64,000 nt of DNA, taken from positions 504,074-568,073 of the forward strand of contig JAHFLF010000001.1 of NCBI GenBank assembly GCA_023255625.1, read 5' to 3'. The notes under the pieces were generated by a model. That model saw only the letters and a program-made list of their open reading frames with translations, ran no database searches and was not told the DNA's origin. The position numbers and the translations under genes are program-made. The stretch comes from Candidatus Harrisonbacteria bacterium. GTDB taxonomy: Bacteria; Patescibacteriota; Minisyncoccia; UBA6257; 1-14-0-10-44-23. Each line of letters opens with the position of its first letter. Position 1 is the first letter of the stretch. This document shows positions 15,117-26,845 of this stretch, piece by piece.

Positions 15117-15521
15117 ATGAATAGCAGCAGTAAACACATAGCGGTCTCAATCGTCATCAGTGTTCTGATTATTGCCGGGGCGATGGTGTATGTTGGGGCC
15201 GGTCGGGACGAAGGGGGAGAGCCGGCTGCAACCAATGTTGTTTCGGTTGTTGATGGAAGGCAGATCATTGATATTGCCGCCCGCGGCGGATATTCGCCGC
15301 GCAAAATTGCCGCAAAAGCGGGCATACCAACCGTCCTGCGCGTCACGACCAAAAATACCTACGACTGCTCTGTGGCGCTGACTATTCCGAAATTGGACTA
15401 TAAAAAATTCCTGGGTAGCACGGCGGTTACCGACATCCCAGTCTCCGCCGAGCAGGCAACTGGTACACTCCGCGGCCTGTGCAGTATGGGCATGTATAGT
15501 TTTAGCGTGGATTTCCAGTAG
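15117..15521 (+). CDS. Cupredoxin-like domain protein (secreted/membrane-anchored)
   Basis: Signal anchor plus a C-terminal ...GTLRGLCSMGMYSF motif typical of cupredoxin_1-like copper-binding domains found in copper operons. Confidence 0.5.
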   Translation: MNSSSKHIAVSIVISVLIIAGAMVYVGAGRDEGGEPAATNVVSVVDGRQIIDIAARGGYSPRKIAAKAGIPTVLRVTTKNTYDCSVALTIPKLDYKKFLGSTAVTDIPVSAEQATGTLRGLCSMGMYSFSVDFQ

Positions 15522-15522
15522 T

Positions 15523-15566
15523 TTTCTTATTCTCATGTTCTTAAGAACATGAGAATAAGAATTTTT
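15523..15566 (+). terminator. Rho-independent terminator of the copper operon
   Basis: Perfect 17-bp inverted repeat TCTTATTCTCATGTTCT/AGAACATGAGAATAAGA followed by ATTTTTTG. Confidence 0.75.
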
Positions 15567-15644
15567 TGATTGGGCGGGCGTTACCAAGCTTCCTATTGAA
15601 AAAAGACCTTCATAGTAGTAGTATTTACCAACAACTTAATAACA

Positions 15645-15720
15645 TTCCGGAGTAGTTCCCGCCCCAGAAGGGGCGAGGCTCGCTCAACAGTAGTTGAGCG
15701 GCAGTGGTTCTTACCGGAAG
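15645..15720. other. Structured segment sharing a 14-nt identity (TTCCGGAGTAGTTC) with the 5' end of the downstream tRNA; not a cloverleaf
   Basis: Direct comparison with 15760..15773; contains two hairpins (CGCCCC/GGGGCG; CGCTCAAC/GTTGAGCG). Confidence 0.3.
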
Positions 15721-15760
15721 CATTAGTTGCGTGTTAGTTGTCAGTAAAACTTAATATAAT

Positions 15761-16193
15761 TCCGGAGTAGTTCAGTGGTAGAACGCCTCGCTGTAAACAG
15801 GACCTACTGTCGAATATGCTTTTGAGGGATTTGGACCCAGATTGCGTGGCGGGTCGAAGTTACAAAAATTCAGTAATACCCAAGGGGTCTAGTGAATTTT
15901 CGTGACAAGACACCGACCGCAATACGGGACAAAGCACCAAAATCATATTCGACAGTAGGTCCAATAATTGCAGCTTTCAACCGAAAGGTTGATTGAAAAA
16001 TCTTGGGATAACGGTGAAACCCCCTTGGGGCAACACCGTGGGAACTCTGACATTAAGTCGGAGGACGCCGTAGAGACTAGATACCAAGAGACCTAAAGTG
16101 AAAACTATGGTCGTGATATAGTCCACCCCTTTCAGTAATGAGAGGACACGTGTAACGAGGATGTCGTAGGTCCGATCCCTACCTCCGGAGCCA
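15761..16193 (+). tRNA. tRNA-Asn(GUU) gene interrupted in the anticodon loop by a roughly 358-nt intron (exons 15761..15794 and 16153..16193 including encoded CCA)
   Basis: The two exons fold into a canonical cloverleaf (acceptor TCCGGAG/CTCCGGA; D-arm GTTCAGTGGTAGAAC; anticodon stem CCTCG/CGAGG; variable loop ATGTC; T-arm GTAGGTCCGATCCCTAC). Discriminator G and overall similarity to bacterial tRNA-Asn. The spliced anticodon loop CTGTTAA assumes the splice junction U|...G|. An alternative junction would give Thr(UGU). Confidence 0.65.
15795..16152 (+). ncRNA. Group I-like self-splicing intron within the tRNA-Asn anticodon loop
   Basis: R-like GAGACTAGA (16073..16081) and S-like GATATAGTCC (16115..16124) give a P7-type GACTA/TAGTC pairing. 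The 5' exon ends in U and the intron ends in G. A 19-bp perfect long-range stem pairs 15800..15818 with 15944..15962. A candidate internal guide sequence GCAGC at 15968 is complementary to the exon end GCTGT, with a U.G pair. Confidence 0.5.
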
Positions 16194-17792
16194 AGTGGGA
16201 TTTGCGAAGCCAAAAGCTTCGCTTTTCCTTTTCATTGCAGGGTTTGTAGAGGTTCGAGCGGAATCAGCTACTACTCCAACATAGTCATTGTTCTTGAATA
16301 TGCTTTGGAACGCGGGACGCAGCTCTATCCTCAATTTGCCTCTTTCAAGGAGGAGGTTCGAGCCAAGACAGCCCAGAATAGCTCTTCGGGTATCTGAATC
16401 ACCATTCAGAAACCAGAGGCGCGCATAGCGTGCGAAATTAAACGTTTTCTCGGTTAGCTCAATCCATTGCTCTAGTTGTTTTCCCTGGCCTTGTAAGTCA
16501 TTCTCGAGCGATTGCTTACGTTTTAGCAGCGTGCTCTTGAGTGCCTGGTACTCACCGTCAGAGATAAGCTGGCCATTTGTATTACTGCTTGATGTGTACT
16601 TTAGTAGTAATGATGCTAATTGCTCGGTTGCACCCTCCAGCTCCCTCTGCTTATTCTGAAAGGCGACTTGCTGTGTGATTGCTTCTCCCTGCCTAATCTC
16701 GTGCAAGTGTTTGATTGCCCAGGTTTTGAATCCTTCGGAAATAGTAACTCCTTGAAGCACAGAATCTATTTGACTATGCAACTTTTTAACCTCAATAGAT
16801 TTTTCTGTACAATCAGGGTTCTTTTTCTTTGTGCAATGATAGTAAATGTAATAGTGCACATTGCCATTTTTTTGATGTTTTATTTTTTCTTCTGCTGTAA
16901 TGCTAGAGCCGCAGCTCGCACAGCGCATTAAACCTGTGAAGGCAAATAGATGGCGTTTCGGGGCGGGCTTTCCTCGTTTCCCTAAGATTACTTGAACGTG
17001 TTGATATTCTTCTTCGGTAATCATTGGTTTGTGTTTCCCCTTAACCCAATTGCCGCTTCCGACAGGAAACTCAAAATATCCATAGTAGAAAGGATTGTTG
17101 AGAATCTTATAGATGGCACTGCGCGACATTGGGCTGCCGCCCAGTCGTTTACGTTGCACGGTTCGATAGCCCCATTCCTTGGTTGCAATTTTATGAATCC
17201 GTAATGGCGTATAGTTACCTGTAAGCATTAAGTCCCACATTCTGCGCACCAAATGAAACCTCTCTGGGTCTTCAACAAGTATTTTGTATCCTTTTTCCCT
17301 GTCTGGCGTATTTAAGTAGCCAGCAGGGGCAACGCCAGGTAGCCATCCGTCATTAACTTTCTTTCGTAAGCCTCTTTTTACATTGACGGATAGGTCTCGA
17401 ACAAATTGATTTGCCTGGCCGAACTCAACACCAATCAGAATACTGTTGTCTCCAGGGGTGTATTCCTTGCCATACGTTTGAATGCTTTGCAGTACGCTCC
17501 TTTGAAGCATCCAGCTAATTTGCCCACCATCTACGGGATTGCGCGCCAATCGGTCAAGCTTCCAGCACAATATGCCATTCGCTTCACCTTTATGGATACG
17601 TTGTAACATTTCAAGAAAGATTGGTCGGCCAGGCTCCTTAGCTGATTGAGATTCCGTAAATGTGCCGACAACATCCAATTTTGATTCGCTTGCAATCTTT
17701 TTGAGCTCATCAATCTGCGCATCAATTGATGCAACCTGCCTATCTTCCGTTTCACTCGACTTGCGAGCATAGATGAAGTACTTCATATTCAA
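16179..17792 (-). CDS. Large serine recombinase (phage-integrase type)
   Basis: N-terminal resolvase domain with catalytic Ser (YARKSS), a recombinase domain, a C-terminal Cys-rich zinc-ribbon/coiled-coil region; 3' end overlaps the tRNA 3' end. Confidence 0.85.
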   Translation of the reverse strand: MNMKYFIYARKSSETEDRQVASIDAQIDELKKIASESKLDVVGTFTESQSAKEPGRPIFLEMLQRIHKGEANGILCWKLDRLARNPVDGGQISWMLQRSVLQSIQTYGKEYTPGDNSILIGVEFGQANQFVRDLSVNVKRGLRKKVNDGWLPGVAPAGYLNTPDREKGYKILVEDPERFHLVRRMWDLMLTGNYTPLRIHKIATKEWGYRTVQRKRLGGSPMSRSAIYKILNNPFYYGYFEFPVGSGNWVKGKHKPMITEEEYQHVQVILGKRGKPAPKRHLFAFTGLMRCASCGSSITAEEKIKHQKNGNVHYYIYYHCTKKKNPDCTEKSIEVKKLHSQIDSVLQGVTISEGFKTWAIKHLHEIRQGEAITQQVAFQNKQRELEGATEQLASLLLKYTSSSNTNGQLISDGEYQALKSTLLKRKQSLENDLQGQGKQLEQWIELTEKTFNFARYARLWFLNGDSDTRRAILGCLGSNLLLERGKLRIELRPAFQSIFKNNDYVGVVADSARTSTNPAMKRKSEAFGFANPTWLRR

Positions 17793-19741: not shown

Positions 19742-22700
19742 ATGCACGGATTACATCAGGGATACTCATATCAAGACCTTCTTGCGGCTTTTCTTATCTC
19801 AGAAAATTTACATCGAAAGGATTTTAAAATTGCCGTTGAGCTTAAAGAGTGCGCAGGAGATGTATTTGATGACATAGTTTTCATCGCAGATAGTAGAAAA
19901 ACTAAAGTTCAAGTTAAGCACTCTGCTTCAAATACAGCATTAAATAAAAATAGTTTTCAAAACACTTCTAGCGACTTGAATCTTGATGGACTAGCTAAGC
20001 CTTTCAAGGCAAAAATTGAAGCTGATTATATTATTGCAACCAATCGTAAGGTAACCCCAGACCCTTTTTTTAAGGAAATAAAAGCCCCCAAAGTCTTTCG
20101 ATTAAAGTATAAATCTTTTTTAATTACTAACTCAGCTCAGAATAAGAAGTTCTTGGAAAAACTTGTTGTTGAATCGTCTTTACCCGACGCCTCATTTGAT
20201 TTAAATAAGCCAGGAAATTTAGAAAAGGAATTGCTAGGTTCTCTGCGCTCGCATGTAGGTATTGGATATTATCCCAACAATCAAGTGTCCGAACGCGATG
20301 TGGCTGGTCGCCTTATTCTACTAGCTTCCCAACTAAGGGGTGCTAAGGAGCATAATTTTGTAACTAGAGAAGAAATTTTTAAACATATAAATTTAAATGT
20401 TGAGTTCGGTCATATCGCCCAAGATTTTCCATTTATATCAACGGAGTATCGCCTCTATAGAAGTGAGATTACAGAAAAGCTCAGGAGACTGCTCTTAAAA
20501 GATACTTATGTTGTTCTTGAAGGGCCTCCAGGTAGTGGCAAGTCTCATATATTTGACGACCTACATTCGAAAATTTTTTCAGAGAAGATTATCGCCGTAC
20601 GACATTTTTGCTATTTGGAACCGACAGACAAGTTTGCCCAAGAACGGATAGTAGCAGAAACTTTGTATGGAAATTTTCTCCATCAGCTTGAACGTGCTGA
20701 GCCAAAGATTTCTGAAGAACTTCGGCCATATTTTGCTGCTACAAAAGTAAATCTTGAGAAATTCCTTGAAAAATTATGTGCTTCAGGAAAACGATTAGTG
20801 CTAATGGTAGACGGCCTAGACCATCTCAACCGAGTAGTTGCCCAGAATAAGTTGCCGCCAAGCCTGGTCCACGATTTCGTCGCCGAATTACTTGATTTGA
20901 AATTGCCGAAAGGATGTTCTCTTTTTATTGCCTCACAACCTGGAAACGAAATAAAAGAGATTATTGAAGAAAAAGGTGTAAAAGTTGTAGAACTGCCACC
21001 TTGGAATGAGAAGATGGTTGCTGAGTTTATAAAAAAACATAATGAACGCTCGGCTGGAACAAGACAAATTCCGATGAGTGATGAGATTATAGATACTTTT
21101 ACTCAGAAAACTGAAGGAAACCCGCTATATCTTACATACGTGTTGAAAGAGATACTGGGGTCTGGAAACGAAAATGATATTATTGCTTTCCTCAAGACAC
21201 TACCTCAACTTAGTAGCGACTTAAATAATTATTATAAATATCTTACGCACGACAGTGATATAAACGATTTTGCAGTGATTCAGACATTTGCTCTACTTGA
21301 TTTCAGCGTCTCTGCTGATGAGCTGAAGGAAATGTTTCCACCTATTCAAAAACGAGCTTTACAGCAAACAATTGCGAAGATACAGCCAATTCTAAAACCA
21401 GGACTTGTTCAGGGTGGTTTGCGTATTTATCACGAAAGTTTTAGAAGATTTATTATCGAGCAGAGCCATAAAAATAAACAGAAAGACAGTGAGCTCTATA
21501 GACACATCACGCAGTGGTTAAGCAGGAATGGATTTTATGCGTCTCAGAGAGCATATAGATATTTGATTCCGTACCTTATTCGTTCTGATGAATACCAACA
21601 AGCATATGAACTGCTAGCAGCAAATTTTGTTGCCCAAAGTCTATATTTTTTCCATTCTCCAGAAAGTATTAAAAATAATTTAAACAGAATTGCTGAATTA
21701 TCTGCCAGAGGTGGGCGTTGGGATATCTACTGTAAGTGCGTAGAGCTCCATCGCGCACTCCATACATACACCTGGGAACGTCAAGAATCAATTGACGATA
21801 TATACCACCAAGCAGTCTTGGATGTTCTTGGTACAGAAATCTTTTGCGAAAGAATGGTATTCGACGGCAAGGCAGTTTTTTCGAAGACTAATGGCATCCT
21901 GCTGTGCCAAATGGCGCAGCATAAGGGGGGAAATCCGCCCTGGGACCACTACAGTGTCGCTGGCGTTTCAATGAACGTTAGAGATGACTCACAAATTCGT
22001 TATTTTCAAGAGGTTGAAAGTGCGCATTATTTGAATCTTTGCCGCAATTCATCTCTGAAGGGCGCGCTAAATACTTTGCAGATGATGATAATTAGAAACA
22101 AATATAAAGGTACAGAAATGCGCCAGATAAGGCTGCTTCTGCGCGAATTTGATTACCTATTCGGTGTTGCGAAACGTAGTAAAGAATTGACAGCTTTTTC
22201 CGTGGCAATGGTTAAGAAAGTGCCTTTGTATATTGTAGTTGCGGAGTATTTGTACAAAGAAGGAATGAAAAAAGAAGCCGCAATGTTAGCCACCTTTGCT
22301 GGTCAACAAACCAAGAATAAAAGTTATATTACTCAGGCATTGCTTTGCGGCGGGAAGCCCGCAAGTTCAACTCGCTTGCCAGATTTTAAAAAATTAACGA
22401 AACAAGTTTTTGAATTTGAGAACCTTTATGATAAAGAGCGTCCCATATTTAGTGAATGGTACAAAACCCTTCTAATACAAGCCCGTATCAATCCTGGGGT
22501 AGTACAGGATGCAAAAAAGCTAGTTGTAAGAATTGATGGTTGGTATAGAGCTTGGATAAAGTTCTTGTTTGAATTGTCTCTGCTGGAAGCTTCAGATATA
22601 AAAAATTCTGGTAAAGCAAAATGGTTGCAAGACGCCTTGTCTGACTTGAATAAATATACACATCCATTCAAAGGTAAGCCACGAGCAATGGACTTATACG

Positions 22701-24388
22701 GGATTCGAGAAGATAGTACCGATTCTTTCCGAAGAACTCTTAATCTTGCAGCCAAATTAAACAATTACCAATCAGTAATATCACTATTGGGTGAGATTAG
22801 TCGTCGCACAACTTCATATCTGCAGGGCTCAAGCTCTGGCCCATTGGAGGGGGAAACATTAAATTCTTTACTAAAAGATACTTATTCGGATTTGAACATT
22901 ACGAACCGAAAAGTGGTTTTAAAGTTGCTTAGACAGAACGTGTTAGAACGCGCAGGTACATCACAATACTATGACTCATCTGCTTTTGAGTATTTAAAGT
23001 TAGGAAGTGTTCTCGCTCTGGCGGGAAATAATACTGAAGCAAAAAAGCGTTTTTTCGAGGGTTGTGTACACGTTGCAGCGTATGGTCATCGTAAGGACGT
23101 TACAATTTACGAGATTATTGACCCCGTTCCTTTTATCGCCGAGAAGGACATTCCTTTTGCGCAACAAGCATTAAAGAAACTTTATCCATTAGTAGAGACA
23201 GTATGGAGATACACCGACGGTAAATCAACTCAATACAGTCTTACTTACTGGCTTGAAGCGCTTGTTGACTCCGACTCTGTGGTTGCAGCTCAAGCAATTA
23301 CTGAACTTGTTACGAAAGACCCCAAACGAGATTGGAGAGTAGAAAGAGGAACAAATTATTTCTGTGATAAATTACTCGGAACAAGCCTTCCAAGAGAGCT
23401 GATTGCAGAATTATACGAAACAATCAACCAGATGAGGGATGTAGATTATGATGTTACTGTAGGACTGAAGATAGTAGAGTCCCTTCTTGCAGATGGGAAA
23501 AAGGAATATGCTGAAAAGCTGTTTGGTAGTATGAGTCATAATCTATACTACGCTTTAATTTTTGATGGCTATTTTAGGGAGCGTGATAACTTTCCCAAGA
23601 TGATTGCCTTTGCTAAGAAGTTCAATCTGATTATTCCAGAAGATGAACGAATGCGATTCGAGGCTGAGATAGAAAAGAAACCTATGGAGTTGCCTGGCGG
23701 TGTTCCTACCGAAAGTAAACCAATACCCAAATTCAAACTTAAAGGTATATCTCTAGAGAAACTACGTAGGTTGATGGACGAAAATCCTTCAAGTTACTTC
23801 TTTGAAACTACCAACAGGAAAGAGTTTGCTGAAGCGTTATTTAATCTTGATAAACAACATCCAGGGAAAGTACAGGAATTAATTCTTTCAGCATTTCGAA
23901 ATGGATATTTCAGAGATGCAGACATCGAGAATCTAATTAAATTGCAAGAATTTTTTATTAAGAAAAAGAAACCTGAAATTGTCGCCTTCATAGGAGTGCT
24001 TTGTTTTGTGTATGCGCGCGGTGGAAATGGCTGGCACTCTCTCGCTGATAGTAAATACAACCACTTGCTCAAAGATGCATTTAGGCTTTCTAGGGCTACT
24101 GCGGAGGATGTTCTAGCGGTTGAGATGTCATATGTGTTCACAAAGCAAGGATACTATACTGGCCCAACGCGACATTTTATTGAGTTCTTTGCATTGAATT
24201 CTGGCGTAAAAATGGCTGAGCTAATATGGAGAGAAGCATTTGATGTAATCAAGTTTCGGTTGCCCACGCCCAAAGAGCTTGATGAAATCTTAAACGCAGA
24301 AACTCCGACTTTTAACTACAATTCATCGAAATCTCTTAATGCCTCGCTCAAAAAATTGATTATTGCTCGTAAGGCAATAACGGGTTAG
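19742..24388 (+). CDS. STAND-class P-loop NTPase, 1548 aa: putative nuclease-like effector N-domain, NTPase, long helical-repeat C-terminal region (antiviral Avs-like architecture)
   Basis: Walker A LEGPPGSGKSH (about 20521..20547) and Walker B LVLMVDGLDHL. About 230-aa N-terminal domain with a D...(Q/E)xK-like signature (FDDIVFIADSRKTKVQVKHS). About 1000 aa of C-terminal alpha-helical repeats. Very AT-rich (about 37% GC) compared with the flanks. Confidence 0.65.
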   Translation: MHGLHQGYSYQDLLAAFLISENLHRKDFKIAVELKECAGDVFDDIVFIADSRKTKVQVKHSASNTALNKNSFQNTSSDLNLDGLAKPFKAKIEADYIIATNRKVTPDPFFKEIKAPKVFRLKYKSFLITNSAQNKKFLEKLVVESSLPDASFDLNKPGNLEKELLGSLRSHVGIGYYPNNQVSERDVAGRLILLASQLRGAKEHNFVTREEIFKHINLNVEFGHIAQDFPFISTEYRLYRSEITEKLRRLLLKDTYVVLEGPPGSGKSHIFDDLHSKIFSEKIIAVRHFCYLEPTDKFAQERIVAETLYGNFLHQLERAEPKISEELRPYFAATKVNLEKFLEKLCASGKRLVLMVDGLDHLNRVVAQNKLPPSLVHDFVAELLDLKLPKGCSLFIASQPGNEIKEIIEEKGVKVVELPPWNEKMVAEFIKKHNERSAGTRQIPMSDEIIDTFTQKTEGNPLYLTYVLKEILGSGNENDIIAFLKTLPQLSSDLNNYYKYLTHDSDINDFAVIQTFALLDFSVSADELKEMFPPIQKRALQQTIAKIQPILKPGLVQGGLRIYHESFRRFIIEQSHKNKQKDSELYRHITQWLSRNGFYASQRAYRYLIPYLIRSDEYQQAYELLAANFVAQSLYFFHSPESIKNNLNRIAELSARGGRWDIYCKCVELHRALHTYTWERQESIDDIYHQAVLDVLGTEIFCERMVFDGKAVFSKTNGILLCQMAQHKGGNPPWDHYSVAGVSMNVRDDSQIRYFQEVESAHYLNLCRNSSLKGALNTLQMMIIRNKYKGTEMRQIRLLLREFDYLFGVAKRSKELTAFSVAMVKKVPLYIVVAEYLYKEGMKKEAAMLATFAGQQTKNKSYITQALLCGGKPASSTRLPDFKKLTKQVFEFENLYDKERPIFSEWYKTLLIQARINPGVVQDAKKLVVRIDGWYRAWIKFLFELSLLEASDIKNSGKAKWLQDALSDLNKYTHPFKGKPRAMDLYGIREDSTDSFRRTLNLAAKLNNYQSVISLLGEISRRTTSYLQGSSSGPLEGETLNSLLKDTYSDLNITNRKVVLKLLRQNVLERAGTSQYYDSSAFEYLKLGSVLALAGNNTEAKKRFFEGCVHVAAYGHRKDVTIYEIIDPVPFIAEKDIPFAQQALKKLYPLVETVWRYTDGKSTQYSLTYWLEALVDSDSVVAAQAITELVTKDPKRDWRVERGTNYFCDKLLGTSLPRELIAELYETINQMRDVDYDVTVGLKIVESLLADGKKEYAEKLFGSMSHNLYYALIFDGYFRERDNFPKMIAFAKKFNLIIPEDERMRFEAEIEKKPMELPGGVPTESKPIPKFKLKGISLEKLRRLMDENPSSYFFETTNRKEFAEALFNLDKQHPGKVQELILSAFRNGYFRDADIENLIKLQEFFIKKKKPEIVAFIGVLCFVYARGGNGWHSLADSKYNHLLKDAFRLSRATAEDVLAVEMSYVFTKQGYYTGPTRHFIEFFALNSGVKMAELIWREAFDVIKFRLPTPKELDEILNAETPTFNYNSSKSLNASLKKLIIARKAITG

Positions 24389-25429: not shown

Positions 25430-25513
25430 ATAAGGGAGTACCAATTTTAGCTAGCATTAACCCGGGTTAATTTTGTACCTGCGGTGGGGGTGGAATTTTG
25501 CTATACTTGCGGT

Positions 25514-26086
25514 ATGAAAAAAGCAGTTCTCTTATACGGCAGATTTTCAGAAAAAATTGCCACCCTTCCTGAATGCAACCCCAACGATGAGCGTAATTGG
25601 ATGGGTTGGACCAAAAAGCAGCTTATTGAGCGTGGCTATCAAGTGGTCTGTCCGACTATCCCAAAGGTTTGGGAAGCTCCTTACGGAGAATGGAAGAAAG
25701 CCCTTGGCGACGCTGCGATTGATGCAGATACAGTTTTGGTTGGACTGAGTGCTGGCGGTGCGGCTTGTGTACGGTATCTTGCCGAAGAGAAGAGGGCTAT
25801 CAATAAGCTCATCCTTGTCGCACCAGCACGATACGCTGAGGGAGAAGAACCTCTTTCCGCTGCTGCCGACTTCTACAATTTTCAGCTTAGCGATAGCGTT
25901 AAGCAGCAAATCAAGAATGGGACAACGATTTTCGTTTCCAATGATGAACCGCTAGCTGGCATTCAAGGGTCAGTAAAAATATACGAGAAAGAGCTCGGTG
26001 CGAAAGTAATTCGTTTTGAAGATAGAGGTCATTTTTCGTTTTTGATTAAAACCTTCCCAGAATTGGTTGAGGAAGTAGCTACCTAA
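25514..26086 (+). CDS. Alpha/beta-hydrolase, YdeN/RBBP9-like serine hydrolase
   Basis: GxSxG nucleophile elbow GLSAGG, about 190 aa, start at MKKAVLLYG. Confidence 0.5.
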   Translation: MKKAVLLYGRFSEKIATLPECNPNDERNWMGWTKKQLIERGYQVVCPTIPKVWEAPYGEWKKALGDAAIDADTVLVGLSAGGAACVRYLAEEKRAINKLILVAPARYAEGEEPLSAAADFYNFQLSDSVKQQIKNGTTIFVSNDEPLAGIQGSVKIYEKELGAKVIRFEDRGHFSFLIKTFPELVEEVAT

Positions 26087-26224: not shown

Positions 26225-26845
26225 ATGCTGCTTTTTCTCAATTCCAATAGCTATCTCGGCCTCTCTCTTGCTCATTGGCTCGTAGTTGTATCCGCAGTTT
26301 TAAGTCTTAGCGGAGCCTTCGCTTATATTCGCGACATGCTCCGTGGGAAATCAACGCCCAATCTCGTAACATGGGGATTATGGGCATTCGCTCCCTTAGT
26401 CGCAACAGGTGCGGCGCTCTCCGCGTATGCTGATGGATGGTCCACTGTACGTATTTTCATGACTGGTTTTGGGCCACTTCTTATAACGATCACCGCACTC
26501 TTCGTTTCCAAGCGTTATTGGAAGTTGTCATTTTTTGATTACGCCTGTGGCGCGCTTTCTATAATTGCCCTTGGCGTATGGCTTATAGCTGGTTCACCGG
26601 TGTTAGCGATACTGCTGGCAGCAACAGCGGATTTGTTTGCCACGCTTCCAACTATCATTAAGGCATGGAAATATCCAGAAACAGAGACCCTCTATACCTA
26701 CTTCGTGGGGCTATTTACTGCCAGCATTATTATTCCCGCGATACCTGTTTGGAATATAGAGAACTCCGCTTTCCAAATATATGTCCTAATAGCTAATGCA
26801 GCCCTTTTCATCGCTGTATTTCGCAAACGTGTAAAGTGGTTCTAA
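26225..26845 (+). CDS. Integral membrane protein (about 6 TM), unknown function
   Basis: Hydrophobicity pattern. Confidence 0.4.
   Translation: MLLFLNSNSYLGLSLAHWLVVVSAVLSLSGAFAYIRDMLRGKSTPNLVTWGLWAFAPLVATGAALSAYADGWSTVRIFMTGFGPLLITITALFVSKRYWKLSFFDYACGALSIIALGVWLIAGSPVLAILLAATADLFATLPTIIKAWKYPETETLYTYFVGLFTASIIIPAIPVWNIENSAFQIYVLIANAALFIAVFRKRVKWF

What the first reader, a model, noticed from the sequence alone, without database searches (positions are those of the whole stretch)
15761..16193. Group I-like intron in the anticodon loop of tRNA-Asn(GUU)
The two exons (15761..15794 and 16153..16193) assemble into a textbook tRNA-Asn with discriminator G and encoded CCA. The intervening 358 nt carry group-I core signatures. 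These are an R-like GAGACTAGA and an S-like GATATAGTCC that form a P7 GACTA/TAGTC pairing, a 5' exon ending in U, and an intron ending in G. An internal guide candidate GCAGC is complementary to the exon end GCTGT with a U.G wobble at the splice site. A 19-bp perfect long-range stem (15800..15818 with 15944..15962) encloses 125 nt, which looks like an extra peripheral insertion. Group I introns in tRNA-Asn are not among the classic bacterial cases (Leu-UAA, fMet, Arg, Ile), and the splice position U35|U36 is unusual.
Basis: partly seen in the sequence, partly recalled or inferred. Interest (0 to 1): 0.6.

Follow-up and report, generated by a model that had tools for sequence, protein, structure and literature searches.

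The report
Group I intron splitting tRNA-Asn gene

Summary
Observation confirmed. Intron-aware ARAGORN calls tRNA-Asn(GUU) at 15761..16193 with a 358-nt intron after U35. A covariance model built only from ten related introns, without this window, matches 15970..16152 end to end (167 bits, E about 2e-52). The Rfam group I model scores 42.3 bits, below its cut-off of 50.

The P2-P9 pairings can be drawn and are backed by compensatory changes in nine relatives. It is not new: group I introns at 35/36 of tRNA-Asn were mapped by Williams (2020). Nakagawa et al. (2026) described them, mainly in Patescibacteria, and showed in vitro self-splicing for one. My scan of species-representative genomes stopped at its 120-locus limit.

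This copy has the compact core variant without the extra helices that most members carry between P3' and P8.

Unusual points:
- A 163-nt, ORF-less, near-palindromic hairpin (15800..15962) sits in the P1 loop, where relatives carry an HNH homing-endonuclease gene. No other copy was found anywhere searched.
- The T-loop has C55, against U55 in all 88 other resolved family tRNAs.

Side findings: the tRNA 3' end is the junction of a serine-recombinase island, and a partial copy of exon 1 lies upstream.

Verdict: new member of a known kind; modest interest.

The parts
15761..15794 (+). tRNA-Asn exon 1 (positions 1-35, ends C32 U33 G34 U35)
   Evidence: ARAGORN with introns allowed. The exon end ..GCTGT matches the other resolved family members.
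15795..16152 (+). Group I intron, 358 nt, inserted between anticodon positions 35 and 36
   Evidence: U at -1 and G at the last position.
15790..15796 (+). P1 5' strand: GCUGU|AA (5' splice site after 15794)
   Evidence: Pairs with 15968..15974. Predicted in the MFE fold of the precursor.
15800..15962 (+). 163-nt imperfect palindrome forming a long hairpin inside the P1 loop (L1). The base is a 19-bp perfect stem. No ORF of note.
   Evidence: 75% self-complementary over 163 nt; -82.7 kcal/mol, z -11.8. Removing it leaves L1 = AAACA+AATAATT, which is family-typical.
15968..15974 (+). P1 3' strand / internal guide sequence UUGCAGC (G15970 forms the U.G wobble with U35)
   Evidence: GCAGC is invariant in 78/78 aligned introns.
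15977..15992 (+). P2 hairpin with GAAA tetraloop (15983..15986)
   Evidence: 6/6 pairs show compensatory changes in relatives.
16001..16006 (+). P3 5' strand (UCUUGG), pairs with 16084..16089
   Evidence: 4/6 pairs covary; 100% of cells paired.
16012..16038 (+). P4 (16012..16016 / 16034..16038) enclosing P5 (16021..16023 / 16028..16030, CUUG loop)
   Evidence: P4 is 100% paired and almost invariant.
16040..16069 (+). P6/P6a
   Evidence: The distal part is less well aligned.
16073..16079 (+). P7 5' strand GAGACUA (bulged A16074; G16075 is the inferred guanosine-binding pair with C16123)
   Evidence: Invariant in the family. Pairs with 16119..16124. Assignment of the G-binding pair is by analogy with Azoarcus (own knowledge).
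16084..16089 (+). P3 3' strand (CCAAGA)
16090..16112 (+). P8 with CCUAAA...UAUGG, resembling the 11-nt GAAA-tetraloop receptor
   Evidence: 3/4 proximal pairs covary. The receptor reading is from own knowledge of the Azoarcus intron.
16119..16124 (+). P7 3' strand UAGUCC
   Evidence: Invariant ATAGTCC.
16128..16145 (+). P9 hairpin with GUAA tetraloop (16135..16138)
   Evidence: 5/7 pairs covary.
16152..16152 (+). Terminal G (omega G), 3' splice site after it
   Evidence..TG at the intron end is invariant in the family.
16153..16193 (+). tRNA-Asn exon 2 (U36 to discriminator G at 16190, then CCA). The T-loop reads TCCGATC, with C55 at 16172.
   Evidence: all 88 other resolved genes have GGTTC. 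Bases 16192..16193 differ in L001.

Best explanation
This is a tRNA-Asn(GUU) gene interrupted between U35 and U36 by a group I intron. The intron belongs to the family already described at that site, which is commonest in Patescibacteria.

Inferred mechanism:
- The precursor is transcribed, possibly from a promoter-like site at 15596..15624.
- The exon end GCUGU plus the first two intron bases pairs with the guide UUGCAGC to form P1, with a U.G wobble at the splice site.
- The compact core (P3-P4-P5-P6, P7-P3'-P8, P9) folds. It is probably braced by the L2 GAAA loop docking on a receptor-like motif in P8, and by the L9 GUAA loop, as in the Azoarcus intron.
- A free guanosine cleaves after U35. 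The terminal G16152 then takes its place and the exons are joined, giving the anticodon loop CUGUUAA.

The 163-nt hairpin is a discrete, non-coding insertion in the loop of P1. Relatives carry an HNH homing-endonuclease gene in that same peripheral slot. Its tightly paired base holds the two strands of P1 close together, so it is most likely tolerated cargo rather than part of the catalyst.

What is shown: the exon and intron boundaries, family membership, the pairings and their covariation. What is inferred: actual self-splicing, the tertiary contacts, and the neutrality and origin of the hairpin.
For: - tRNA and intron call: ARAGORN gives tRNA-Asn i(35,358).
- Rfam: Intron_gpI E = 3.9e-9.
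- Independent model: a model built from 10 related cores without the window gives a single full-length hit at 15970..16152, 167.3 bits, E = 1.9e-52.
- Pairing: my P2-P9 structure is 91.2% paired across 10 sequences, against 32-45% when partners are slid. 24 pairs have changes on both sides. The covariation score of 0.467 exceeded all 500 shuffles.
- Conserved residues: every column that is invariant across the 78 aligned family members (the window is one of the 78) therefore carries the family residue here too.
- Literature: the same compact core appears in published Patescibacteria entries (GCA_030583765.1 Asn, GCA_023898525.1 Asp, GCA_016699995.1 Tyr). In vitro self-splicing with junction sequencing at 35/36 was shown for a family member (PMC13011429).
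- P1 loop: it is 5-20 nt in most members and holds the HNH gene in the 520-600-nt members, including the close relative L097.
- P1 forms in the MFE fold of the full precursor despite the hairpin.
Against: - No splicing evidence exists for this copy or for the compact sub-type; the tested relatives are of other core variants.
- The Rfam score is below the gathering threshold (42.3 vs 50).
- C55 in the T-loop is unique among 89 resolved family tRNAs and could mean a weakened or decaying gene.
- A 175-nt P1 loop without an ORF is the longest in the sample and could slow P1 formation.
- No convincing P10 pairing can be drawn (read directly from the sequence).
Confidence: 0.88

Rival explanations
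1. The gene is a decaying copy. The intron core is still recognisable, but the tRNA (C55) and/or the intron (large P1-loop insertion) no longer work, and another tRNA-Asn gene elsewhere serves the cell.
For: - C55 instead of the otherwise universal U55 in 88 other family tRNAs.
- The longest ORF-less P1 loop in the sample.
- The locus is littered with mobile-element traces: a partial exon-1 copy upstream and an island downstream.
Against: - All columns that are invariant across the 78 aligned family members, the window included, carry the family residue here, and all helices pair.
- All four tRNA stems are perfect.
- The sequence is identical in two assemblies that carry different downstream islands, so it has been kept while the neighbourhood changed.
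- In Patescibacteria the intron-bearing copy is often the only tRNA-Asn gene (PMC13011429).
- No other tRNA is found in 64 kb.
Confidence: 0.08
2. The 163-nt hairpin is a miniature mobile element (MITE-like, with 19-25-bp terminal inverted repeats) that transposed into the P1 loop.
For: - Perfect 19-bp terminal inverted repeats around a less perfect interior.
- Precise excision would restore a family-typical short P1 loop.
- No similarity to the homing-endonuclease genes that normally occupy this slot.
Against: - No second copy in the 64-kb window, in 120 related loci, in JGI metagenome contigs (two chance 19-mer hits in unrelated DNA) or in viral contigs.
- No clear target-site duplication (flanks AAACA / AATAA).
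- Shorter hairpins in the P1 loop are common in the family, so a local origin is equally possible.
Confidence: 0.2
3. The hairpin is a functional extension of P1, a structural or regulatory domain, for instance controlling folding or splicing rate, or a separate stable RNA released with the intron.
For: - Very stable fold (z = -11.8).
- The perfect base stem next to P1 could be under selection.
- Structured P1-loop hairpins recur in other members (L002, L020, L053, L098).
Against: - No homologue to test for covariation.
- Absent from all nine closest relatives, whose P1 loops are short or hold an endonuclease gene.
- No Rfam match in that stretch at E up to 10.
Confidence: 0.15
4. The true splice boundary lies two bases upstream (exon ..CGCU | intron ..CACG | UGUAACG), giving tRNA-Thr(UGU) with the intron at 33/34.
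For: That boundary also has U at -1 and G at the intron end (read). ARAGORN made this call for many relatives, and the ambiguity is discussed in PMC13011429.
Against: - The invariant guide GCAGC places the U.G wobble at U35, while U33 would pair with A.
- ARAGORN calls Asn here.
- U1-A72 and discriminator G are Asn-like (own knowledge).
- Sequenced splice products of a relative gave 35/36.
Confidence: 0.02

Closest known systems
Group I introns at position 35/36 of tRNA-Asn(GUU) in Patescibacteria and other phyla (Williams 2020, bioRxiv 10.1101/2020.01.27.920355; Nakagawa et al. 2026, PMC13011429), e.g. GCA_030583765.1 (Paceibacteria)
   Same: - Same host tRNA and same insertion site.
- Same guide GCAGC and same ..GTG|TAAC 3' junction.
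- Same compact core (GGGATAACGGTGAA ... CGCCGTAGAGACTAGATACC ... GATATAGTCC).
- 167-bit match to a model built from these relatives.
   Different: - The P1 loop is 175 nt, with a 163-nt palindromic hairpin, instead of 5-20 nt or an HNH gene.
- The tRNA T-loop has C55.
- The core, 183 nt from guide to terminal G, is among the shortest.
HNH-endonuclease-bearing members of the same family (e.g. L097 Patescibacteria REEB69; four cases in PMC13011429)
   Same: Same core and site. The extra sequence sits in the same place, the P1 loop.
   Different: They encode a roughly 100-aa HNH protein whose reading frame runs into the guide sequence. The window insert has no ORF and no tblastn similarity to these proteins.
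Azoarcus sp. BH72 tRNA-Ile(CAU) group I intron (subgroup IC3; structure recalled from own knowledge)
   Same: - Small core without P5abc or P7.1/P7.2.
- GAAA loop on P2 and a CCUAA..UAUGG receptor-like P8.
- GNRA loop on P9.
- GUAGAGACUAGA ... AUAGUCC around P7.
   Different: Different tRNA and site (36/37 in tRNA-Ile), short P1 loop, no sequence-level family relationship tested here. Nakagawa et al. assign nearly all Patescibacteria tRNA introns to subgroup IA with subgroup models that I could not run.
Cyanobacterial tRNA-Asn(GUU) 35/36 introns (GCA_022701255.1, GCA_022701275.1, GCF_016446395.1; Microcoleus, Tychonema and Phormidium loci L003, L009, L010, L044)
   Same: Same site, guide, P2 and P9 layout. 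The P1 loop carries a 40-50-nt hairpin.
   Different: They have the longer core, with an extra insertion between P3' and P8 (257-280 nt from guide to end). The window lacks it.

Membership tests
Group I intron | [quoted passage not shown] | tested here: met
   GCUGU|AA pairs with UUGCAGC. This 7-bp helix is in the MFE fold. The guide is invariant in 78 relatives.
Group I intron | G as last intron nucleotide (omega G) | tested here: met
   G16152. The intron end TG is invariant in the family alignment.
Group I intron | Conserved core P3-P8 with a P3/P7 pseudoknot and a P7 guanosine-binding helix | tested here: met
   Pairs were drawn and counted: 91.2% paired, P3 and P8 covary, P4, P6 and P7 are invariant. 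The Rfam alignment covers model positions 1-253.
Group I intron | Score at or above the Rfam RF00028 gathering threshold | tested here: not met
   42.3 bits against 50; E = 3.9e-9 in a 1.2-kb search. Bacterial tRNA introns are known to score low with this model (bioRxiv 10.1101/2020.01.27.920355).
Group I intron | Guanosine-dependent self-splicing | not testable with these tools
   Shown in vitro only for a relative with the other core variant (PMC13011429).
tRNA-Asn 35/36 intron family (compact-core sub-type) | Match to a covariance model built from other members only | tested here: met
   R1 gives 167.3 bits, E = 1.9e-52, model positions 1-195 of 195, at 15970..16152, the only hit in 64 kb.
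tRNA-Asn 35/36 intron family (compact-core sub-type) | Insertion between U35 and U36 of a tRNA whose spliced form is tRNA-Asn(GUU) | tested here: met
Subgroup IA (as most 35/36 introns are classed in PMC13011429) | Extra helices P7.1/P7.2 between P3' and P8 | tested here: not met
   The window and nine relatives go straight from P3' (CCAAGA) into P8. Most of the other aligned members carry a 40-80-nt insertion there. Subgroup-specific models were not available.
Canonical elongator tRNA | Cloverleaf with 7-bp acceptor, D, anticodon and T arms after splicing | tested here: met
   ARAGORN drawing.
Canonical elongator tRNA | T-loop T54-U55-C56 | tested here: not met
   TCCGATC, with C55 at 16172. 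The other 88 resolved family genes all have GGTTC. The base is the same in the second assembly.
Miniature inverted-repeat transposable element (for the hairpin) | Multiple dispersed copies and target-site duplication | tested here: not met
   No other copy in the window, the loci, JGI metagenomes or viral contigs. The rest of the source genome could not be searched.

The most novel reading that the evidence does not exclude
The 163-nt perfect-ended palindrome is a new kind of small mobile or structured element that has taken over the homing-endonuclease slot (P1 loop) of a group I intron. More broadly, the tRNA-Asn gene of these small-genome bacteria would be a shared landing pad for three unrelated selfish elements: the HNH intron in the anticodon loop, GIY-YIG cassettes at the 5' end, and serine-recombinase islands at the 3' end. 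The odd C55 and the upstream exon-1 fragment would then be by-products of that traffic.
Probability: 0.15. Interest if true: 0.55.

Novelty: new member of a known kind. Interest (0 to 1): 0.28.

Why it matters
In practice, this tRNA gene is invisible to default annotation: default ARAGORN and Rfam at gathering thresholds both return nothing. The genome would therefore look as if it lacked tRNA-Asn. The 2026 paper raises exactly this problem for completeness estimates of Patescibacteria.

Biologically, this copy adds a data point on what the P1 loop of these introns can carry: 175 nt of non-coding hairpin in place of an endonuclease gene.

It also shows a tRNA with C55 that has been kept unchanged in two strain variants.

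The neighbourhood suggests that tRNA-Asn is a hot spot for several mobile elements, which may merit a study of its own.

Tried and rejected
- Default ARAGORN and Rfam at gathering thresholds gave nothing. Only the intron-aware and E-value modes see the element.
- Phage record search with 15600..16300 gave no match.
- Group II intron or IS as the intervening sequence: no such Rfam hit at E up to 10, and the only ORFs of 40 aa or more that overlap the intron are short mechanical ones. Rejected.
- Hairpin as a decayed HNH endonuclease gene: tblastn with 20 intron-encoded HNH proteins gave only noise (best E about 0.1 against 358 nt), and there was no nucleotide similarity. Rejected as far as it can be detected.
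- Hairpin as a repeated mobile element: searched for the 19-nt arm with up to 3 mismatches in the window, by blastn-short against the window and all loci, by exact scan of JGI metagenome contigs and of viral contigs. The two metagenome hits are single arms in unrelated, eukaryote-like DNA with no tRNA and no other similarity. No support.
- Displaced tRNA 3' end further downstream, as a tyrosine-integrase island would leave: none within 3 mismatches of the last 28 nt.
- Source organism: protein cluster look-up and contig look-ups gave only sample accessions (ENA ERZ27280176, ERZ27297344, ERZ27296333; Logan SRR14366769 and SRR14366772) and a longest contig of 601,890 bp. A literature search for DUF5667 found nothing. 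Patescibacteria is inferred from the intron's nearest relatives, the best protein matches among the fetched loci, the DUF5667 hit and the one-strand gene layout. It is not proven.
- Alternative splice boundary giving tRNA-Thr(UGU): rejected (see rivals).

Full report
**Observation.** The region was read directly. Exon 1 (15761..15794) and exon 2 (16153..16193) join into a 75-nt tRNA with perfect acceptor, D, anticodon and T stems, anticodon GUU and discriminator G. ARAGORN calls the spliced sequence tRNA-Asn. With introns allowed it calls tRNA-Asn [15761,16193] i(35,358) on the raw window. Default ARAGORN and Rfam at gathering thresholds report nothing in the whole 64 kb, so standard annotation would miss this gene. 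The 19-nt arm GGACCTACTGTCGAATATG occurs exactly twice, in inverted orientation, at 15800 and 15944 (0.01 expected by chance).

**Is it a group I intron?**
- A permissive Rfam scan of 15400..16600 gives Intron_gpI at 15953..16145: 42.3 bits (gathering score 50), E = 3.9e-9, covering the full model.
- For an independent test I collected relatives. A pattern joining the P7 3' strand, the 3' junction and a tRNA T-arm (ATAGTCC..TGTAAC..GGTYCNANNCC) was scanned against one genome per prokaryotic species. It stopped at its 120-locus limit.
- In 88 of these loci I could resolve a tRNA-Asn(GUU) gene split after U35.
- All 78 aligned cores share the guide GCAGC, AGAGACT, ATAGTCC and a terminal TG.
- Nine loci (L012, L016, L026, L036, L043, L070, L097, L109, L113) share the window's compact core. 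Five carry Patescibacteria-lineage names outright; L043, L109 and L113 are labelled uncultured Candidatus Saccharibacteria (a Patescibacteria lineage, own knowledge); L016 and L026 carry uninformative bin labels. The match includes GGGATAACGGTGAA, ACCGTGGGAAC and CGCCGTAGAGACTAGATACC.
- A covariance model was built from these nine plus one published Paceibacteria intron, without the window. It finds a single hit in the window, exactly 15970..16152, end to end: 167.3 bits, E about 2e-52.
- The hand-drawn structure (P2, P3, P4, P5, P6/6a, P7, P8, P9, with the P3/P7 pseudoknot) was counted on the MAFFT alignment. 91.2% of cells pair, against 32-45% when partners are slid by one to three columns. 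24 pairs change on both sides. The covariation score of 0.467 exceeds all 500 shuffles.
- Compensatory changes are seen in P2 (6/6 pairs), P3 (4/6), P8 (3/4), P9 (5/7) and P6a. P4, P6 and P7 are invariant and so uninformative.

**Splice site.** A boundary two bases upstream would also have U at -1 and G at the intron end, and would give tRNA-Thr(UGU). ARAGORN made that call for many relatives, and the 2026 paper discusses the ambiguity. The invariant guide puts the U.G wobble at U35, with U33 facing an A. The tRNA body is Asn-like, and sequenced splice products of a relative gave 35/36. I take 35/36.

**Anatomy and likely mechanism.**
- P1 is GCUGU|AA paired with UUGCAGC (15968..15974). It forms in the minimum-free-energy fold of the whole precursor, together with the tRNA acceptor and anticodon stems.
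- The core from guide to terminal G is 183 nt. This is the shortest but one among those resolved; L070 has 172 nt.
- It lacks the 40-80-nt insertion between P3' and P8 that most of the other aligned members carry.
- P2 ends in GAAA, P8 contains CCUAAA...UAUGG, and P9 ends in GUAA. From my own knowledge of the Azoarcus tRNA-Ile intron, this is the layout in which tetraloop-receptor contacts brace a minimal core.
- Splicing by the usual two guanosine-dependent steps is inferred, not shown.

**The insertion.**
- The loop of P1 is 175 nt here. In the family it is usually 5-20 nt, sometimes a 30-110-nt hairpin or a gene remnant.
- In the 520-600-nt introns it is about 300-350 nt and encodes a roughly 100-aa HNH endonuclease. 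This includes L097, which has the window's core type. The insertion therefore sits in the family's cargo slot.
- It is a 163-nt imperfect palindrome (75% self-complementary along its length) that folds into one long hairpin (-82.7 kcal/mol, z -11.8).
- Its 19-bp perfect base stem is the longest in any P1 loop of the sample. Cutting it out leaves AAACA+AATAATT, a typical short loop.
- It has no similarity to the HNH genes and no Rfam match.
- No other copy was found in the window, the 120 loci, JGI metagenome contigs or viral contigs.
- Its origin remains open: a mobile palindrome, a local inverted duplication, or a selected P1 extension.

**Prior knowledge.**
- Williams (2020) expanded intron-split bacterial tRNA types from 4 to 21.
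- Nakagawa et al. (2026) report 15 tRNA-Asn 35/36 introns in 95 complete Patescibacteria genomes. In 4,934 complete bacterial genomes they report 28 introns at 35/36, including three cyanobacterial tRNA-Asn cases. They report HNH genes in four, and in vitro self-splicing with a G-to-C control.
- Their tables contain the same compact core in tRNA-Asn, tRNA-Asp and tRNA-Tyr of Patescibacteria.
- The tRNA-Asn intron they tested is of the longer core type.
- The finding is therefore a new member of a known kind.

**Host.** The proteins of the window are singletons at 90% identity, present in NCBI and ENA, on contigs up to 601,890 bp. Several lines point to Patescibacteria, though this is an inference:
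- the intron's nearest relatives;
- the best protein matches among the fetched loci;
- a DUF5667 protein;
- genes running almost all on one strand.

**Oddities of the tRNA.** The T-loop reads TCCGATC, with C55 at 16172. All 88 other resolved family tRNAs have U55. The base is the same in a second assembly, so it is not a sequencing error. Whether it impairs the tRNA is unknown.

**Surroundings.**
- A second assembly (L001) is identical to the window through 16191 and unrelated after it.
- In both assemblies the divergent DNA begins with a large serine recombinase gene on the opposite strand. Its last four codons and its stop codon (16179..16181) lie inside the tRNA.
[quoted passage not shown] Several read through the whole 3' exon.
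- The tRNA 3' end is therefore an attachment point for recombinase-borne islands. Here the island carries a 1,548-aa NACHT protein.
- Upstream, 15645..15725 is a partial copy of exon 1 with a GC-rich hairpin at the D-loop position. Similar fragments occur in about eight other loci. In two of these (L042, L094) a small GIY-YIG gene lies between the fragment and the tRNA, and such genes abut the tRNA 5' end in five further loci.
- These points are outside the finding but bear on the 'encoded CCA': its last two bases are island DNA.

**Verdict.** The observation and the interpretation are correct. Novelty is low because the class is published and widespread. The P1-loop hairpin and C55 are the only unusual features, and neither has a demonstrated function.

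Noticed in passing
window 16179..17792 (-) and junction at 16191/16192; L001 7063..8550: A large serine recombinase gene (Resolvase, Recombinase and Zn_ribbon_recom domains) converges on the tRNA, and its stop codon lies inside the tRNA T-stem. A second assembly is identical up to 16191 and then carries a different recombinase and different DNA. The tRNA-Asn 3' end therefore looks like an integration site used by at least two different islands.
   Followed up: partly
L002, L006, L007, L016, L030, L036, L038, L065, L068, L106, L111, L112, L114, L118 (next to their tRNA-Asn): Homologous large serine recombinase genes abut the 3' end of intron-bearing tRNA-Asn genes in at least 14 other genomes, always convergent. 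Several ORFs read through the whole 3' exon (C-termini such as ..WL..DSN..P.GY, the reverse-strand translation of CCA, acceptor and T-arm) and stop in the last bases of the intron.
   Followed up: partly
window 15633..15725: There is a partial copy of the tRNA 5' end. The 26 nt AACTTAATAACATTCCGGAGTAGTTC are 92% identical to 15748..15773. They are followed by a GC-rich hairpin where the D-loop should be, then by AGGCTCGCT (like the anticodon-stem 5' strand), a second hairpin, and CCGGAAGCA, which closes a 6-bp stem with the start. The fold is -46 kcal/mol (z -5.6). ARAGORN and Rfam see nothing there.
   Followed up: partly
L034, L040, L042, L054 (two copies), L094, L111, L059; GIY-YIG ORFs in L042 7437..7682, L094 1450..1211, L016, L035, L046, L075, L093: Similar exon-1 fragments with a palindromic hairpin at the D-loop lie 90-300 nt upstream of the intron-bearing tRNA-Asn in several genomes. 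In L042 and L094 an 80-aa GIY-YIG nuclease gene (Pfam E about 1e-16) fills the gap. Such genes abut the tRNA 5' end in five more loci. This suggests a GIY-YIG cassette that targets the 5' part of tRNA-Asn. The window has the fragment but no such gene.
   Followed up: partly
window 16172: The T-loop has C at position 55 (TCCGATC), whereas all 88 other resolved family tRNA-Asn genes have U. The 11-mer GTAGGTCCGAT of the T-arm resembles GTAGGTCCAAT at the 3' end of the P1-loop hairpin (15955..15965), possibly by chance.
   Followed up: partly
window 16192..about 26200: A low-GC stretch (0.39-0.44 against 0.45-0.49) holds the recombinase, several small ORFs without Pfam hits, a 1,548-aa NACHT NTPase (19742..24388) and a 200-aa serine-hydrolase/TIR_2-like protein (25484..26086). 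It looks like a small defence island. Another sample's contig breaks inside the ORF at 26225..26845, which may mark the right end.
   Followed up: partly
window 16204..16222: A terminator-like hairpin plus T-run lies 11 nt after the tRNA. It sits in island DNA and inside the C-terminal coding region of the recombinase on the other strand. A promoter-like TTGAAA-17-TAGTAT at 15596..15624 lies upstream of the exon-1 fragment. Both are consensus matches only.
   Followed up: no
window 15524..15561: A perfect 19-bp palindrome with no loop, followed by a T-run, lies after the copper-ATPase / DsbD_2 / cupredoxin-like operon. It is probably a bidirectional terminator, and it produced the spurious microRNA hits in the Rfam E-value scan.
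   Followed up: no
intron-encoded HNH ORFs in L018, L054, L075, L084, L097, L103, L106 and others: In several endonuclease-bearing relatives the reading frame appears to run on through the guide sequence GCAGC. The proteins carry ..TQLP.. near the C-terminus, matching ACGCAGCTTCC in L097. Protein coding and the P1 guide would then overlap. This was judged by eye and not measured.
   Followed up: no
L013, L082, L105, L115, L096 (records labelled archaeal): A few pattern hits lie in bins labelled Pacearchaeota, Woesearchaeota, Methanosarcinales or Halogranum. The DPANN-labelled ones carry bacterial-type tRNA-Asn introns and are probably mis-binned bacterial contigs, as Williams (2020) suspected for similar cases.
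   Followed up: no
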